Notes under the pieces: generated by a model
Database searches by the model: none
What the model saw: the letters and a program-made list of their open reading frames with translations, nothing else
What the model was told of the DNA's origin: nothing
Program-made: the position numbers and the translations under genes
Assembly: GCA_963747235.1 (NCBI GenBank)
Contig: CAVVEU010000024.1
Coordinates: forward strand, 384,001-448,000
Length of the DNA stretch: 64,000 nucleotides
Origin: an uncultured Candidatus Rokubacteria bacterium
Lineage (GTDB): Bacteria > Methylomirabilota > Methylomirabilia > Rokubacteriales > CSP1-6
Direction: 5' to 3'
In this document: positions 3,125 to 47,737 of the stretch, piece by piece
Layout: the number at the start of each line of letters is the position of its first letter
Position numbering within the stretch: the first letter of the stretch is position 1

Positions 3125-4465
3125 ATGACCAAGGCCGACCTGATGGCGCAGGTGCGTGCGGCGATCGACCGCCGCGGTGCTGCGATCATCGAGCTGGGAG
3201 AGACGATCCGCCGCCACCCCGAGCTCGGGTTCAAGGAATTCAAGACCGGGAAGCTGGTCGCGCAGACCTTCGAGCGCATGGGCCTGACGCCGCGCACCGG
3301 GCTGGCCCTGACCGGCGTGCGCGCCGACGCGGCCGGGCGCGCGGGCGACGGGCCCACGCTGGCCCTCTTCGGCGAGCTGGACGGCCTCGTGGTGGTGGGG
3401 CACCCGGTGGCCGACCCGGAGACCGGCGCCGCGCACGCCTGCGGCCACAACGCGCAGGTGGCGGGGATGCTGGGCGCGGCCATGGGCCTGCTGGAGGCGG
3501 GCGCCTTCGAGCACCTGGCCGGCCGCGTGGCCTTCATCGGCGTGCCCGCCGAGGAGTACGGCGACGTGGAGTGGCGGGTGGCCCAGCGCGACGCGGGCCG
3601 GCTCGAGTTCATGGGCGGCAAGCCGGAGATGCTGCGGCTCGGCCATCTCGACGACGTGGACATGGGGATGATGATCCACGCCACCCCGCGCCCCGAGGAG
3701 GGCAAGCTCGCGGTGCCGATGTCCAACAACGGCTGCGTGGTGAAGACCGTCCGCTACGTCGGGCGCGCCTCGCACGCGGGTGGCGCCCCGCACATGGGCA
3801 TCAACGCGCTCTACGCGGCCCAGATCGGCCTCATGGCCATCAACGCGATCCGAGAGACGTTTCGCGACGAGGACACCATCCGGGTGCACCCGATCATCAC
3901 CCACGGCGGCTCGCAGGTGAACGTCATCCCCGGCGAGGTGCGGCTCGAGACGTTCGTGCGCGGCAAATCGCTCGAGGCCATCGCGGACGCGGACCGCAAG
4001 GTGGATCGCGCGCTGCGCGCGGGGGCGCTCGCGCTCGGCTGTTCCGTGGAGATCGAGACCCTGCCCGGCTACATGCCGCTCCGCTGCGACCCCTTGATGG
4101 TGGAGCGCTTCCGGGCCATCGCGGCCGACCTGGTGGGCGAGGACAACGTGCGCACGATCCGGCACCGCACCGGCTCCACCGACATGGGCGATCTCGGGCA
4201 GGTCATGCCGATCATCCATCCCTACGTGGGCGGCGCGAAGGGCACGCCGCACGGCGCGGACTACGAGATCGTGGATCCCGAGCTGACCTACCTCACCAAC
4301 GCGAAGGCGCTCGCCTCCATGGTGGTGGACCTGCTGGCCGACGGCGCGACGGTGGGCCGCCAGGTCGTGGCCCAGGCCAAGCCGCCCCTCACCCGCCAGG
4401 CCTATCTGGATTTCCAGCGGCAGATGAGCCGGCGGGAAACCTACGACGGAGCGACGACCGGCTAG
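3125..4465 (+). CDS. M20 family amidohydrolase
   Basis: HPELGFKE, ELDGL, HACGHN, PAEE and GSTDMG motifs. Confidence 0.9.
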   Translation: MTKADLMAQVRAAIDRRGAAIIELGETIRRHPELGFKEFKTGKLVAQTFERMGLTPRTGLALTGVRADAAGRAGDGPTLALFGELDGLVVVGHPVADPETGAAHACGHNAQVAGMLGAAMGLLEAGAFEHLAGRVAFIGVPAEEYGDVEWRVAQRDAGRLEFMGGKPEMLRLGHLDDVDMGMMIHATPRPEEGKLAVPMSNNGCVVKTVRYVGRASHAGGAPHMGINALYAAQIGLMAINAIRETFRDEDTIRVHPIITHGGSQVNVIPGEVRLETFVRGKSLEAIADADRKVDRALRAGALALGCSVEIETLPGYMPLRCDPLMVERFRAIAADLVGEDNVRTIRHRTGSTDMGDLGQVMPIIHPYVGGAKGTPHGADYEIVDPELTYLTNAKALASMVVDLLADGATVGRQVVAQAKPPLTRQAYLDFQRQMSRRETYDGATTG

Positions 4466-44819: not shown

Positions 44820-46154
44820 CTAGCGGGCCGCCCAGGGGGATGAGGCGGGCAGCAGGACGGGCGCGTTGGGGGTGGCGATGACCTTGGGCCACACGTGACG
44901 GAACTGGCCATCGACCACCTGGTAGACCGCGGCGATCGCGCGCTCGTTCTGGCCGCGCATCGGGGCACCTTCGCCGAGGAACTTCACGCCGTAGCCCTGC
45001 ATGGTGCCGCCCTCGGGGATGTCGGTCTCGCGGGCCGCCTTCGCGAGCGCCTCCGCGTTCCAGCCCCCGTGCTTCTGGATGGCCCGCGGCAGCACGTCGT
45101 TGAGCAGGATCCACATGTTGTTGAAGCCCATCGAGACGTGCGGCGCGATGTTGTTGACCGGGACGTTGGGCTCGAAGGCCTTGTAGCGCTTCACCATCTC
45201 CTGGGTCAGGTCGGCCACGCCGGGCTTCAGGTTCTTGGCGTCGATGAGCTGGGAGGCGGGCGGATCCGCGGTGTGGAAGCCCTCCACCTCGTTGCCGAAG
45301 GCTTCCTTCAGCTTGTCGAGCTGGCTGTGGCCGGCCCCGTGCCCCATGTAGGCCTTCACGCGCAGGCCCTGCTCCTTGGCCTGACGGAGGAACAGGTTGA
45401 TGTCGGGGTTGTAGCCGGTGTGGAACAGCACGTCCGGCCGCGCCGCGCGCAGCTTGGTCACGAGCGAGGAGAGATCGGCGGCCTGCGCCGAGTACCCTTC
45501 CTTCAGCACGACCTGCATGCCCAGCTTCTTGCCCTCGGACTCGTTCGCGGCGGCGACGCCCGCGCCGTAGGGCCCGTCCTCGTAGATGATCGCGATGCGC
45601 ACGTCCTTGGCCGGCTTCTTGAGCTTGTCCGCCGAGTAGGCCGCGATGTAGTCCACGCTCCCGGTGCCGAAGAGGCTGCCGTTGGGCTGGGGGCGGAAGG
45701 TGTACTGGAGGTTGCGATCCTTCAGCACCGCGTCCGCGATGGCGGTGGTGATCCACAGGAACCTCTTCTGCTTGTCCACCCGCTCGGCGATCGGGACCGC
45801 GTGGGCGCTCGAGTAGACCCCGGCCAGGATGTCCACCTTCTCGACGTTGAGCAGGCGCTCGGCCTCGTTGATCGCCACGTCGGCCTTGGACTGGCTGTCG
45901 CCGTCCACCTGGACGATCTTGTACTTGCCGAGCACGCCGCCCTTCTCGTTGATGTAGTCGATCATCATCTTGGCGCCGCGCCAGCAGTTGAGCGAGCCGG
46001 CGGCGGAGAAGGGCCCGGAGTGATCGTAGAGCGTGCCGATCTTGATGGTCTGGCCCTGGGCCGCCACCGGCGCCGCGGAAACCGCGAGCAGCGCGAGCGC
46101 GGCCATCGCGGCCAGGCCCGATCGAATGCCGAACAGGATGCGGCGAGACTTCAT
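44820..46154 (-). CDS. ABC substrate-binding protein, LivJ-like (PBP type 1)
   Basis: Signal peptide; YDHSGPFS, GVYSSA, YEDGPYG. Confidence 0.9.
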   Translation of the reverse strand: MKSRRILFGIRSGLAAMAALALLAVSAAPVAAQGQTIKIGTLYDHSGPFSAAGSLNCWRGAKMMIDYINEKGGVLGKYKIVQVDGDSQSKADVAINEAERLLNVEKVDILAGVYSSAHAVPIAERVDKQKRFLWITTAIADAVLKDRNLQYTFRPQPNGSLFGTGSVDYIAAYSADKLKKPAKDVRIAIIYEDGPYGAGVAAANESEGKKLGMQVVLKEGYSAQAADLSSLVTKLRAARPDVLFHTGYNPDINLFLRQAKEQGLRVKAYMGHGAGHSQLDKLKEAFGNEVEGFHTADPPASQLIDAKNLKPGVADLTQEMVKRYKAFEPNVPVNNIAPHVSMGFNNMWILLNDVLPRAIQKHGGWNAEALAKAARETDIPEGGTMQGYGVKFLGEGAPMRGQNERAIAAVYQVVDGQFRHVWPKVIATPNAPVLLPASSPWAAR

Positions 46155-46247
46155 GGATGCCTCCTCATTAAGGCTTGAGTTCTTGGACGGCGAGAGAAAA
46201 GTGCGCCAACCCTAGCACGCCCACGCACGGCCGGTCAACGAACGCGA

Positions 46248-46920
46248 TCAGGACCGGCGCGCCGCGACGAGCCATTCGAGATCCCGGCGCCGCTCGGCGG
46301 AGCGGCCCGGCGGCCCGGCCTGCAGGACGGTGAAGCGGCCCGCGAGGGCCCGGTCGATGTCGCCGCGCGAGACGGGAAAGGGCGGGCCGTCTCCGCCCTC
46401 GCGAAGCGGGAAGAAGCAGGCGAGCAGGAGCCCACCCGGTCGCAGGATCGTGTGGAGCACCGACACGTACTCGTCTCGCCGCGCGGGATCGATGGCGCAA
46501 AAGCACGTGTACTCCCAGATCCCGTCGAAGACCCCCGCGTAATCCCGACCGAGCGTGAACACATCACGCTGCTCCACCACCAGCTCGACTCCATCCGACA
46601 GCCGCCAACCGCCGCGCCTCGGTCACCGCCACATCAGAAAAATCAAACGCGGTGACCCGATACCCAAGGCGAGCCAGCAAGCGTGCATCGTGAGCACGCC
46701 CAGCACCAGGAACCGCAACGCGAGCCCGCAGAACGAGTGTCCGCCGACTGGGGGAGTGCGGGGGCCATTTCTGGGCCCCCGCATTCAATAGAGCTCTGAA
46801 GAACTAAACCGGCCAGAAGCCGAAGCCAGCCAGTCTTCCGAGCGCCGGCGCGGCCCCGCCCAGCTCCCAGCCGTCCTGGGCGGCCGCGTAGAGGCCGTCC
46901 CAGAATCCGGCCGTGCTCAC
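46248..46920 (-). CDS. TPMT/halide-thiol-type SAM methyltransferase, interrupted by a family-B repeat (indels)
   Basis: FWDGLY..GWELGGAAPAL, VAVPGAGRAHD, AFDFS, WEYTCFCAIDP, GPPFPVS; GTGA overlap with the HAD gene. Confidence 0.8.
46733..46806. repeat. 73-bp hairpin repeat, family B, copy inside the methyltransferase
   Basis: Near-identical to the 47578 unit; stem TGCGGGGGCC-atttctg-GGCCCCCGCA. Confidence 0.9.
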
Positions 46921-47570
46921 GGCTGGGCGATCTGGCTCCACTCGAGTCCCTGGAAATCGGGGATGGTGCGCTCGGCGCCGGCGGCGACCAGCTCCGCGTC
47001 GGTGTGCGCGGTGGTGACGCCGATCGCCCGCATGCCCGCGGTCCGCGCGGCCTGCACGCCGACGAGCGCGTCCTCGAACACCACGCAGGCCGTCGGCGCG
47101 ACGCGCAGCCGCCGAGCCGCCTGCGTCCACACCTCCGGATCGGGCTTGCCCAGCATGACGTCGTCGGAGGTCACCACGACGTCGAAGTAGCGCAGGAGGC
47201 CGAGGTCATCGAGCAGGCGCTCGGCGTCCCAGCGCGAGGCGGAGGTGCCGACGGCCCGCGGAACGCCGGCGCGGGCCAGCGACGCGAGGAACTCGGGCAC
47301 GCCCGGCACCGGCTCCATCCCGGTCTGCGCCCGCTCCTGGTAGAGGTCGCGCTTGCGCCGCGCGAGCCGGCGCGCTTCCGCGCCGCTCATGCGACGGCCC
47401 AGCAAGAGCGGGATGGCCTCCTCGCTGGGCCGGCCGATGGTGAGCCGCCAGTGCTCGGGATCGGCGGGCTCGGTACCCAGCTCCGCCAGCAGCGCGCGCC
47501 ACGCATGCCGATGGTGCGCCCCACTGTCGATCAGCACCCCATCCATATCGAAGATCGCGCTGGCAATCAC
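46917..47570 (-). CDS. HAD family phosphatase (beta-PGM-like)
   Basis: IFDMDGVLIDS, GTSA, GKPDPE, FEDALVG. Confidence 0.9.
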   Translation of the reverse strand: MIASAIFDMDGVLIDSGAHHRHAWRALLAELGTEPADPEHWRLTIGRPSEEAIPLLLGRRMSGAEARRLARRKRDLYQERAQTGMEPVPGVPEFLASLARAGVPRAVGTSASRWDAERLLDDLGLLRYFDVVVTSDDVMLGKPDPEVWTQAARRLRVAPTACVVFEDALVGVQAARTAGMRAIGVTTAHTDAELVAAGAERTIPDFQGLEWSQIAQP

Positions 47571-47577
47571 AGGTCGT

Positions 47578-47737
47578 AGACGAGTGTCCGCCGACTGGGG
47601 GAGTGCGGGGGCCATTTCTGGGCCCCCGCATATGGAGAGCTTGAAGAACTAGACGAATGTCCGCCGACTGGGGGAGTGCGGGGGCCATTTCTGGGCCCCC
47701 GCATATGGAGAGCTTGAAGAACTAGACGAATGTCCGC
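47578..47737. repeat. Tandem array of the family-B repeat: two full 73-bp units plus a 14-bp partial unit
   Basis: Units start at 47578, 47651 and 47724; the full units differ at one base (GAGTGT vs GAATGT). Confidence 0.92.

What the first reader, a model, noticed from the sequence alone, without database searches (positions are those of the whole stretch)
46480..46860. Strand-specific synonymous C-to-T footprint in coding DNA around a hairpin repeat
Seen: in the methyltransferase (minus strand), 18 of the first 34 codons after the family-B repeat (46734 downward) end in T, 6 in C, 9 in G and only 1 in A (gtt gct gtt gtt cct ggt gct cgt gct gat ... ttt gat ttt tct gat). A control stretch of 34 codons in the M20 gene (3362-3463) has no T-ending codons. 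The excess fades over roughly 250 bp. It also appears on the other side of the repeat (gct tcg gct tct ggc cgg ttt), and more weakly in the HAD gene below the tandem copies (8 of 37 T-ending, 0 A-ending). The protein motifs are intact (VAVPGAGRAHD, AFDFS). No such footprint flanks the family-A repeats. Inference: this is localized, one-strand cytosine deamination filtered by purifying selection, meaning the minus strand is repeatedly single-stranded or is targeted near this element. Possible causes are HUH/RAYT-type nicking, hairpin extrusion, polymerase stalling or a recruited deaminase. It does not match DGR mutagenesis (A-to-N), and double-strand methylation decay would also raise A-ending codons. 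This could be an undescribed repeat-directed hypermutation process.
Basis: partly seen in the sequence, partly recalled or inferred. Interest (0 to 1): 0.85.

Follow-up and report, generated by a model that had tools for sequence, protein, structure and literature searches.

The report
T-rich codon patch beside repeat
A soil bacterium's methyltransferase gene really does carry a stretch where half the codons end in T, but related genes show this is an inherited loss of C from one strand in one branch of the gene's family, not a mutation process driven by the neighbouring repeat.

Summary
The 34 codons from 46734 to 46633 (minus strand) end in T 18, G 9, C 6, A 1, against a genome baseline of about 3-6% T.

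The gene is a TPMT-family methyltransferase in a Rokubacteria/Methylomirabilota MAG. A 79-nt REP-like hairpin element sits in frame in its linker.

The T-rich state is inherited. Six of 23 orthologs, plus 12 metagenome alleles picked by a T-rich motif, share it. Several of these are intact genes with up to 20 of 33 T-ending codons, so it is not pseudogene decay. T/(T+C) falls from 0.81 to 0.05 over about 300 nt downstream of the element, while A/(A+G) stays flat.

Repeat-directed hypermutation is not supported:
- Ten other insertions of the element at the same site lack the patch.
- The 45 other genomic copies show at most a weak skew.
- The element's own C-rich arm is unchanged.
- Ortholog L007 has no element, yet shows the same C-depletion profile with G in place of T.

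The shared trait is loss of C at synonymous sites on the sense strand. Its cause is unresolved; I favour selection on the transcript over strand-specific mutation.

The parts
46248..46919 (-). TPMT-family SAM methyltransferase gene. GTG start overlaps the HAD stop. Broken in this assembly.
   Evidence: PF05724 matches the 3' piece at E 1.7e-12 and the intact ortholog L007 at 4.3e-24. Frames, stop and shift. Length 670 nt, not a multiple of 3.
46731..46809 (-). REP-like repeat element (about 79 nt) inserted in the linker between the N-terminal segment and the SAM-binding fold. It has a T-rich 5' arm, a hairpin and a C-rich 3' arm.
   Evidence: Other copies align to query positions 117-195 of the search. 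41 copies match a 35-mer with <=4 mismatches and 46 match a 19-mer core with <=2 mismatches. Copies are aligned by anchor.
46757..46783 (-). Hairpin of the element: 10-bp G+C stem with a 7-nt loop.
   Evidence: RNA fold of 46725-46812: MFE -38 kcal/mol, z = -2.7.
46804..46806 (-). In-frame TAG that ends the N-terminal reading frame in this assembly.
   Evidence: In orthologs the same letters are read as ...TTT AGT TCT... (RFSS) in the intact frame.
46633..46734 (-). Core of the T-ending codon patch (34 codons; VAVPGAGRAHD...AFDFSD).
   Evidence: T3 18, G3 9, C3 6, A3 1. Homologous third positions in 23 orthologs.
46530..46632 (-). Second part of the C-depleted zone. Mostly G-ending codons, with some T-ending. 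Contains the frame change near 46590.
   Evidence: L001 third positions: T 7, C 6, A 1, G 20 of 34. The C3 fraction returns to 0.54 or more only below about 46510.
46917..47615 (-). HAD-family hydrolase gene upstream in the same operon-like row. The listed ORF start lies inside a repeat copy.
   Evidence: PF13419 at E 6e-33. ORF list. T3 at the 5' end compared across orthologs.
47592..47699 (-). Two tandem copies of the same element upstream of the HAD gene.
   Evidence: 35-mer matches at C24:431592-431626 and 431665-431699. Tandem arrangement visible.
44820..46154 (-). Periplasmic substrate-binding protein gene downstream. Synteny HAD - methyltransferase - binding protein is kept in relatives.
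   Evidence: PF13458 at E 1e-44. tblastn finds HAD in 12 of 12 loci and the binding protein in 10 of 12, the other two being short loci.

Best explanation
The T-ending codons are the local form of an inherited, sense-strand-specific loss of C at synonymous sites. It covers about 200 nt at the start of the methyltransferase's SAM-binding domain.

The trait arose in one sub-lineage of this Rokubacteria genus: G000, six other genomes, and related soil metagenome alleles. It has been passed on under purifying selection on the protein. In the alleles that also carry the in-frame REP-like element, C was replaced mainly by T near the element and by G further away. In the sister allele L007, which has no element, C was replaced by G.

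The repeat is therefore a neighbour of the patch and not its cause, and G000's copy shows no hypermutation peculiar to it.

Most likely mechanism (inferred, not shown): selection on the transcript or sense strand for a C-poor, G+U-rich 5' segment. One possible purpose is to avoid C-rich, G-poor stretches that would let Rho factor end transcription early (recalled knowledge). The frequent C-to-T transition would supply the T route. The shown part is the inherited C-depletion pattern; the selective reason is conjecture.
For: 1. The count is real and extreme.
2. It is inherited. T3 at 32 homologous third positions is L001 16, L002 10, L003 9, L004 13, L005 12, L006 11, and 0-7 in 17 others.
3. 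It is not decay. Metagenome alleles with open frames to the stop carry T3 of 20, 19, 15 and 15 of 33, and they share G000's unusual residues (GRAHD, ARLGY, FSDVAV).
4. C3 fraction per 45-nt bin:
   - T-rich alleles: 0.12, 0.33, 0.24, 0.34, 0.36, then 0.54-0.68.
   - L007 (no element): 0.07, 0.40, 0.27, 0.27, 0.47, then 0.60-0.67.
   - 16 other orthologs: 0.51-0.65 throughout.
   Per-sequence Fisher tests of the 5' part against the 3' part give p = 2e-7 to 0.016 in all 17 alleles of the T-rich group tested, p = 0.0035 in L007, and p >= 0.11 in all 15 of the 16 others that could be tested (L009 is cut short).
5. At fourfold sites the T-rich alleles have G 52% and T 22%, L007 has G 73%, and the others have G 35-41%. 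C is lost by two routes.
6. There is no dependence on the repeat among orthologs (p = 0.92).
7. The HAD 5' T3 follows lineage, not element orientation.
8. Private changes of L002, L004 and L005 in the zone show C>T (1-4) about equal to T>C (3-4), which is a steady state.
9. The element's C-rich arm is intact next to a bin with T/(T+C) of 0.81.
Against: - No function was tested and none is known. The organism is uncultivated.
- C>T is also raised at codon positions 1 and 2 in the zone (13 of 40 C sites, against 4 of 55 in the 3' part), while G>A is not (7 of 55 against 12 of 64). This fits a mutational push at least as well as selection.
- At fourfold sites, selection against Rho loading would favour G over T, yet the alleles with the element took T.
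- The gradient starts exactly at the element's 3' end and runs one way. All T-rich alleles carry the element or a remnant, so a link between the T route and this one insertion cannot be excluded. There is only one such evolutionary event.
- The reference state was the majority of other orthologs, not a rooted reconstruction, so the direction of C/G changes in 46530-46632 is uncertain. Outgroup L023 has C 14 and G 16 there.
- The groups were partly defined by the trait that was then counted, and 4 of the 10 distinct T-rich alleles were fetched with a T-rich motif.
Confidence: 0.4

Rival explanations
1. Strand-specific mutation. The sense (non-template) strand just downstream of the in-frame hairpin is repeatedly single-stranded, for example in R-loops when ribosomes lag behind RNA polymerase at the hairpin. 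Its cytosines are deaminated or lost. Selection on the protein then leaves mainly synonymous C-to-T changes.
For: - One-way, monotonic decay of T/(T+C): 0.81, 0.47, 0.42, 0.22, 0.09, 0.05, with flat A/(A+G) of 0.02-0.10.
- The asymmetry is significant in each allele (p = 5e-5 to 0.05).
- C>T is raised at positions 1 and 2 as well (13/40 against 4/55), and G>A is not.
- No fixed neighbour-base context is visible in the codon list.
- The zone evolves 2-3 times faster than HAD in four lineages (9-12.5% private changes against 3.5-4.9%).
- The window's + strand has positive GC skew. The gene is therefore probably head-on to replication, and the local skew opposes the replication skew, pointing to transcription rather than replication.
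Against: - L007 shows the same C depletion without any element and with G, not T.
- The element's own C-rich arm, which is nearest the supposed origin, keeps every C in all alleles.
- The 10 other insertions at the same site (4 forward, 6 reverse, outside the T-rich group) and other in-frame copies (for example C8:667784, with T3 of 1, 2, 0, 2 per 15 codons) lack the patch.
- Reaching T/(T+C) of 0.8 from a baseline of about 0.07 needs roughly a 50-fold higher C-to-T flux. That is close to the whole single-strand to double-strand difference in deamination rate (about 140-fold, recalled). This is my own arithmetic.
- L002, L004 and L005 show no net ongoing C>T.
Confidence: 0.28
2. General repeat-directed hypermutation. 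The REP-like family recruits nicking (RAYT/HUH), hairpin extrusion or a deaminase wherever it sits, leaving a C-to-T footprint on its forward strand.
For: - Across 45 other copies, the forward strand shows T-A of +7.5 per 100 nt (sense coding, n=9, z = 3.2) and +8.7 (mixed or non-coding, n=19, z = 5.2) in the first 100 nt downstream.
- Pooled third positions downstream give T/(T+C) of 0.40, 0.29, 0.19 and 0.12 in 21 same-sense ORFs. In 20 antisense ORFs, A/(A+G) is 0.25, 0.17, 0.08 and 0.20.
Against: - The best-looking second case, the MFS gene at C24:696693, dissolves on inspection. The T-rich 40 nt is a degenerate second copy of the element. The next 30 conserved codons have 2-6 T3 in both forward (4) and reverse (3) insertion classes.
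- Stop-to-stop ORFs include non-coding stretches.
- With high-confidence 3' ends, A3 is 3.9% against a null of 2.5% (p = 0.09, n=11). The apparent T3 signal (p = 0.047, n=8) comes from one frameshifted ORF.
- Antisense-coded flanks show +0.6 (n=5).
- There is no effect among orthologs.
- No Y1_Tnp was found, with a positive control in 6 of 14 genomes. No DddA-like hit was found, but that control was silent.
Confidence: 0.07
3. Decay of a dead gene, or assembly error, in G000. The gene is broken, so AT-biased mutation or consensus errors produced the T's.
For: - There is an in-frame TAG and at least one frame change.
- G000 has compensated frameshifts elsewhere in homopolymer runs, so indel errors exist in this assembly.
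- L001 has 9 private C>T changes against 1 T>C in the zone.
Against: - Intact alleles from independent assemblies are as T-rich or richer: 15-20 of 33, and 9-13 of 32 in five other genus genomes.
- G000's unusual residues recur in L056, L049 and L054.
- Decay would raise A-ending codons too and would affect the 3' half, where T3 is 6 and A3 is 4 of 93.
Confidence: 0.05
4. Imported or recombined segment from a lower-GC donor, or a 5' codon ramp from an internal start.
For: The zone is more divergent than its flanks: identity to L001 is 0.58-0.83 in the patch against 0.81-0.92 in the 3' part.
Against: - The protein is nearly identical to that of relatives, and only synonymous sites differ.
- There is no symmetric gain in A3.
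- The genome's 5' ramp is tiny: T3 is 6.2% in codons 2-10 against 3.1% later.
- No sigma-70-like promoter lies in 46200-47700.
Confidence: 0.04

Closest known systems
Rickettsia palindromic elements (RPEs) and other intragenic MITE/ERIC-type elements
   Same: Short palindromic repeats are inserted into protein-coding genes in frame, giving a translated insert. This is described in passages of the review PMC10969869. Here the element sits in the same linker in 14 of 23 orthologs (8 forward, 6 reverse). Open frames around the gene are 387-573 aa in 19 of 22 places. The element also sits in the central loop of an MFS transporter in 7 of 7 orthologs.
   Different: A different phylum (Rokubacteria/Methylomirabilota), a much shorter element (about 79 nt) and a very G+C-rich stem. 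The same site is hit in both orientations. No codon-composition gradient is mentioned for RPEs in the passages I saw.
REP/BIME elements with RAYT (Y1 transposase)
   Same: A multi-copy (41-46) short hairpin repeat, often in tandem and mostly between genes.
   Different: No Y1_Tnp gene was found in this 88%-complete genome. The element has long non-palindromic arms and occurs inside genes. The GTAG/CGTC end tags of REP super-families (abstract of PMC3733652) were not tested properly.
Transcription-associated strand asymmetry (excess C-to-T on the non-transcribed strand; reviewed in PMC2031905 and PMC10030826, seen as search listings and abstract starts only)
   Same: T>A and G>C on the sense strand, with no matching G-to-A changes.
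   Different: The known effect is weak and spans whole transcription units. Here T/(T+C) reaches 0.8, the effect is confined to about 200-300 nt, half of the C loss goes to G, and it is limited to one allele lineage.
APOBEC-type clustered mutation (kataegis) in eukaryotes (recalled, not from a call)
   Same: Strand-coordinated C-to-T plus C-to-G changes in a short tract.
   Different: No such enzyme or pathway is known in bacterial chromosomes. Here the pattern is an evolutionary steady state under protein-level selection, not a single burst. No neighbour-base context is visible.
Rho utilisation (rut) sites: C-rich, G-poor unstructured RNA (recalled, not from a call)
   Same: The trait is the exact opposite composition (C-poor, G+U-rich) in about 200 nt of mRNA. 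That is what avoidance of Rho loading would look like.
   Different: There is no evidence here that Rho acts on this transcript, and no prediction tool was run.

Membership tests
TPMT-like SAM methyltransferase (PF05724) | Profile match above the curated cut-off | tested here: met
   L007 ortholog: 85.8 bits (cut-off 26). Window 3' piece: 47.9 bits.
REP/RAYT system | Short hairpin-forming repeat in many copies | tested here: met
   41 copies (35-mer, <=4 mismatches). 46 copies (19-mer, <=2 mismatches). 10-bp stem.
REP/RAYT system | Cognate Y1 (HUH) transposase gene in the genome | tested here: not met
   PF01797 gives 0 matches in G000. The control rang in 6 of 14 known genomes. The genome is 88% complete with 16,000 bases withheld, so absence is not proven.
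REP/RAYT system | Extragenic location | tested here: not met
   At this locus and in the MFS gene the element lies inside open reading frames. Most other copies are between genes.
REP/RAYT system | GTAG or CGTC tag at one end (abstract of PMC3733652) | tested here: inconclusive
   Some copies read ...TCGTCTAG... at the junction of the 3' arm and the next 5' arm. This was not analysed systematically.
RPE-like in-frame palindromic element | Insertion keeps the host reading frame open | tested here: met
   A single tblastn segment spans the insertion in most orthologs. The frame is open through the element in L002-L004, L008 and L010-L012 (L009 as far as its contig runs). Open frames are 387-573 aa in 19 of 22 places. 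The exceptions are G000 and G013 (frameshifted) and one contig end.
RPE-like in-frame palindromic element | Terminal inverted repeats or target-site duplication of a transposon-derived MITE | tested here: inconclusive
   GTTCT occurs at both ends of the focal copy, and once in L005, which lacks the hairpin. This could be a duplication or a deletion by microhomology. No terminal inverted repeats are evident.
Diversity-generating retroelement mutagenesis | Changes at adenines of a variable repeat (A to N) | tested here: not met
   The changes are at C (C>T, C>G). A>N changes are rare. A reverse transcriptase was not searched for.
Strand-specific cytosine deamination footprint | C-to-T on one strand without the complementary G-to-A | tested here: met
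   T/(T+C) is 0.81-0.22 against A/(A+G) of 0.02-0.09. Fisher p = 5e-5 to 0.05.
Strand-specific cytosine deamination footprint | Transitions only: C is lost to T, not to G | tested here: not met
   C>G occurs at 10 of 17 C sites in 46530-46632 and 4 of 18 in the patch. L007 loses C to G (G 73% at fourfold sites). The direction rests on the majority state, not on a rooted reconstruction.
   Only a weak skew, at most 100 nt long, appears at other copies.
Interbacterial DNA deaminase toxins (DddA-like PF14428) | Gene present in the genome | tested here: inconclusive
   0 matches, but the control rang in 0 of 14 genomes. PF14437 gave 3 matches, but it also rings in 12 of 14 control genomes, so these are housekeeping-type deaminases.

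The most novel reading that the evidence does not exclude
A bacterial, locus-anchored cytosine-loss process. Downstream of an in-frame, translated REP-like hairpin in a probably head-on gene, the non-template strand is chronically exposed, for example by R-loops after ribosome-polymerase uncoupling. It loses cytosines to T, and through abasic sites to G. This writes a one-way gradient about 250 nt long that selection on the protein filters to synonymous sites. On this reading, L007's G-rich version would be an older or recovered stage of the same process.
Probability: 0.15. Interest if true: 0.85.

Novelty: new variant of a known kind. Interest (0 to 1): 0.45.

Why it matters
Stretches in which synonymous sites of an intact, conserved gene depart this far from the genome's codon usage are rare. 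Here 50-60% of codons end in T in a genome with 70% G+C. Apart from one ORF whose stretch I read as out of frame, no in-frame window in this genome came close.

Because the departure is one-stranded, one-directional and inherited, it gives a clean natural case for asking which force shapes codon choice inside genes of high-GC bacteria: selection on the transcript (structure, Rho access) or local strand-specific damage.

The work also shows that a Rokubacteria repeat family repeatedly lands in frame in surface linkers of proteins, in both orientations. This extends a phenomenon known mainly from Rickettsia.

For the scan itself, the result is a caution. A footprint beside a repeat was real, but it was not caused by the repeat.

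Tried and rejected
1. Genome-wide search for other T3-rich windows. All top hits that I inspected were out-of-frame stretches of hydrophobic proteins or frame-switch regions, so they are no use as a second example.
2. C24:746262-747186 looked like a T3 patch next to a repeat. It is a compensated frameshift in homopolymer runs of an ABC permease gene.
3. The MFS transporter locus looked like a second gradient. Orthologs show a degenerate second element copy, and similar T3 (2-6 of 30) in both orientation classes.
4. A flank-gene tree (HAD + binding protein + 3' methyltransferase) has weak support (33-81%) and does not recover clean clades. I used pairwise identities instead.
5. A genome-wide link between G3-richness and T3. 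Both T3 and A3 rise slightly in G3-rich windows, with no T-specific effect. The second half of that script failed.
6. The 5' ramp, a promoter scan (0 found) and Rfam (2 chance-level hits, E 0.6-0.9) gave no explanation.
7. Sequencing runs. No run held more than 0.41 of the sampled words.
8. Literature. Searches found no paper describing a C-to-T gradient next to a bacterial repeat, nor repeats of Rokubacteria. In the 6 papers holding both 'Rokubacteria' and 'palindromic', each word occurs once or twice, and none is about this by title. I read passages of PMC10969869 only; all others were seen as listings and abstract starts. Supplementary files were not opened.
10. Script or input slips: a reference containing a stop codon; redone; column error; redone; invalid reference; replaced.
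Full report
WHAT IS THERE. The window is G000:C24:384001-448000 of a 5.57-Mb, 42-contig genome with 70.7% G+C. The record titles of related loci place it in Candidatus Rokubacteria/Methylomirabilota. On the minus strand lie three genes:
- a HAD hydrolase (46917-47615);
- a TPMT-family methyltransferase (46248-46919; PF05724);
- a periplasmic binding protein (44820-46154).
This order is kept in relatives. A 79-nt repeat element (46731-46809) sits inside the methyltransferase, between its N-terminal segment and the SAM-binding motif VAVPGAG. The element has a T-rich 5' arm, a 10-bp G+C hairpin and a C-rich 3' arm. The genome holds 41-46 copies, depending on the match rule.

THE OBSERVATION. The count is exact: of the 34 codons from 46734 to 46633, 18 end in T, 9 in G, 6 in C and 1 in A. 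The control stretch has none ending in T or A. The baseline is about 3-6% T and 2-5% A. The raw skew lies in the top 47 of 110,833 windows of 300 nt. Among 751,131 in-frame windows, 7 reach 18 T-ending codons. All 7 lie in one ORF, whose stretch I read as out of frame, and no other ORF reached 18. So the patch is real and far beyond chance.

In this assembly the gene is broken, by a TAG at 46806-46804 and a frame change near 46590. The assembly also has homopolymer frameshifts elsewhere. I therefore cannot say whether the breaks are real. Reads could not be viewed.

IT IS INHERITED, NOT DECAY. All 21 genomes of the genus hold the gene. Together with a second copy in one genome and one ortholog from another genus, I compared 23 orthologs. 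At 32 homologous third positions of the patch, T counts are:
- L001: 16
- L002-L006: 10, 9, 13, 12, 11
- the other 17: 0-7.

A metagenome scan with a T-rich 21-base motif returned 12 more alleles of this kind and one unrelated hit. Because these were picked by the trait, they show only what exists. Several are open to the stop codon, with a conserved protein and 15-20 T-ending codons of 33. They share G000's unusual residues. Pseudogene decay and assembly error are therefore not the explanation.

THE GRADIENT. In 10 distinct T-rich alleles, T/(T+C) at third positions runs 0.81, 0.47, 0.42, 0.22, 0.09, 0.05 going downstream from the element. A/(A+G) stays at 0.02-0.10. Upstream, T/(T+C) is 0.40 only in the 13 codons that include the element's own arm, then 0.04. 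The asymmetry is significant within single alleles (p = 5e-5 to 0.05).

THE REPEAT IS NOT THE CAUSE.
1. Fourteen of the 23 orthologs carry the element in this same linker: 8 forward including L001, and 6 reverse. Excluding L001, T3 in the patch averages 4.8 with the element (n=13) and 4.6 without (n=9), p = 0.92. The four forward insertions outside the T-rich group and the six reverse ones show 0.25 and 0.19 in the first 15 codons, against 0.13 with no element.
2. L007 has a native linker and no element. Its C3 fraction per 45-nt bin (0.07, 0.40, 0.27, 0.27, 0.47, then 0.60 or more) matches that of the T-rich alleles (0.12, 0.33, 0.24, 0.34, 0.36, then 0.54 or more). The 16 other orthologs stay at 0.51-0.65. 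L007 replaced C by G (73% G at fourfold sites). The T-rich alleles use both G (52%) and T (22%). The shared derived trait is therefore loss of C, not gain of T, and deamination cannot yield G.
3. The element's own C-rich arm, directly beside the most T-rich bin, keeps its C's in every allele, including synonymous third positions.
4. Other copies. An orientation-matched, masked test on 45 copies gives a forward-strand T-A excess of +7.5 to +8.7 per 100 nt in the first 100 nt only (z = 3.2 and 5.2). Where the flank is antisense-coding it gives +0.6 (n=5). Pooled third-position counts look suggestive, but they include non-coding stretches. The clearest case, an MFS transporter, turned out to be a degenerate second element copy plus codons that are equally T-ending in both orientation classes. 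With high-confidence gene ends the signals are p = 0.09, and p = 0.047 from one frameshifted ORF.
5. The weak T excess at the HAD 5' end follows lineage, not element orientation: L001 6, L002 7 and L005 6 of 30 (the last two with reversed elements upstream), and L007 2 with a forward element adjacent.
6. No Y1 transposase was found. No DddA-like deaminase was found, but that control was silent. The other deaminase hits are of a kind present in 12 of 14 control genomes.

WHAT CANNOT BE EXCLUDED. All T-rich alleles carry this particular forward insertion or a remnant of it. L005-type alleles keep 11 nt of the 5' arm, and L051 has an internal deletion. The choice of T over G is therefore confounded with one insertion event, a sample of one. 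C>T is also raised at codon positions 1 and 2 in the zone (13 of 40 C sites against 4 of 55), while G>A is not. The zone also evolves 2-3 times faster than HAD. Both facts fit a mutational push. The window's + strand has positive GC skew. The gene is thus probably head-on to replication and the local skew runs against the replication skew, which would point to transcription rather than replication if the cause is mutational.

MECHANISM. I commit to the following, with modest confidence (0.4). The pattern is an inherited, sense-strand C depletion maintained at synonymous sites, most likely by selection on the transcript. My conjecture is avoidance of C-rich, G-poor RNA that invites Rho, or of competing structure. 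C-to-T transitions are the commonest supply of non-C alleles.
- Shown: the pattern, its inheritance, its independence from the repeat, and its steady state in three lineages (C>T about equal to T>C).
- Inferred: the selective reason.
The main rival (0.28) is strand-specific damage of the non-template strand at this locus. A general repeat-directed process is unlikely (0.07).

LIMITS.
- Groups were partly defined by the trait counted.
- Kin are not independent, so the per-allele p-values overstate the evidence.
- Gene calls are my own crude ORF filters.
- Reads, supplementary files and earlier findings were unavailable.
- Recalled items are marked as recalled where they appear: Rho site composition, the single-strand deamination rate, and APOBEC spectra.

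Noticed in passing
window 46731-46809; loci L002-L023 (same linker of the methyltransferase): The REP-like element occupies the same protein linker in 14 of 23 orthologs, 8 forward and 6 reverse, with 1 to about 5 copies. It is read through in frame: open frames are 387-573 aa in 19 of 22 places. Deletion derivatives exist (L005 keeps 11 nt; L051 lost the hairpin). This is an insertion hot spot with RPE-like translated inserts, in Rokubacteria.
   Followed up: partly
G000:C24:696646-696750 (outside the window); loci L082-L088: The same element lies in frame in the central loop of an MFS transporter in 7 of 7 orthologs (4 forward, 3 reverse). It has tandem and degenerate copies, and short direct repeats (GGCGGACNACCGTC-like) upstream.
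   Followed up: partly
G000:C24:746262-747186 (outside the window): An ABC permease gene has a compensated pair of frameshifts in homopolymer runs (GGGCCC, GGGG). Several other ORFs show an out-of-frame middle between in-frame flanks. This suggests indel errors in the assembly, or real compensated shifts.
   Followed up: partly
window 47592-47699 and the start of the HAD ORF at 47615: The ATG in the element's loop (…AGAAATGGCC…) opens the longest HAD ORF (MAPALPQSAD…). Many downstream ORFs run into the element in this way, so gene callers may place starts inside repeat copies.
   Followed up: no
window 46809-46823 and 47652-47665 (minus strand): Terminator-like small hairpins followed by the element's T-rich arm (TTTAGTTCTT). 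3 were found, against 0.7 expected from shuffles.
   Followed up: no
window 46633-46734 across all orthologs: This segment is the most divergent part of the gene in every pairwise comparison (65-87% identity, against 80-92% in the 3' part), even though its protein sequence is the most conserved.
   Followed up: partly
G000:C20:62885-63190, about 900 nt from a repeat copy at C20:61996: A deaminase-domain ORF with a 378-aa open frame; a RibD-like gene is my guess. It lies near a repeat copy and is probably housekeeping.
   Followed up: no
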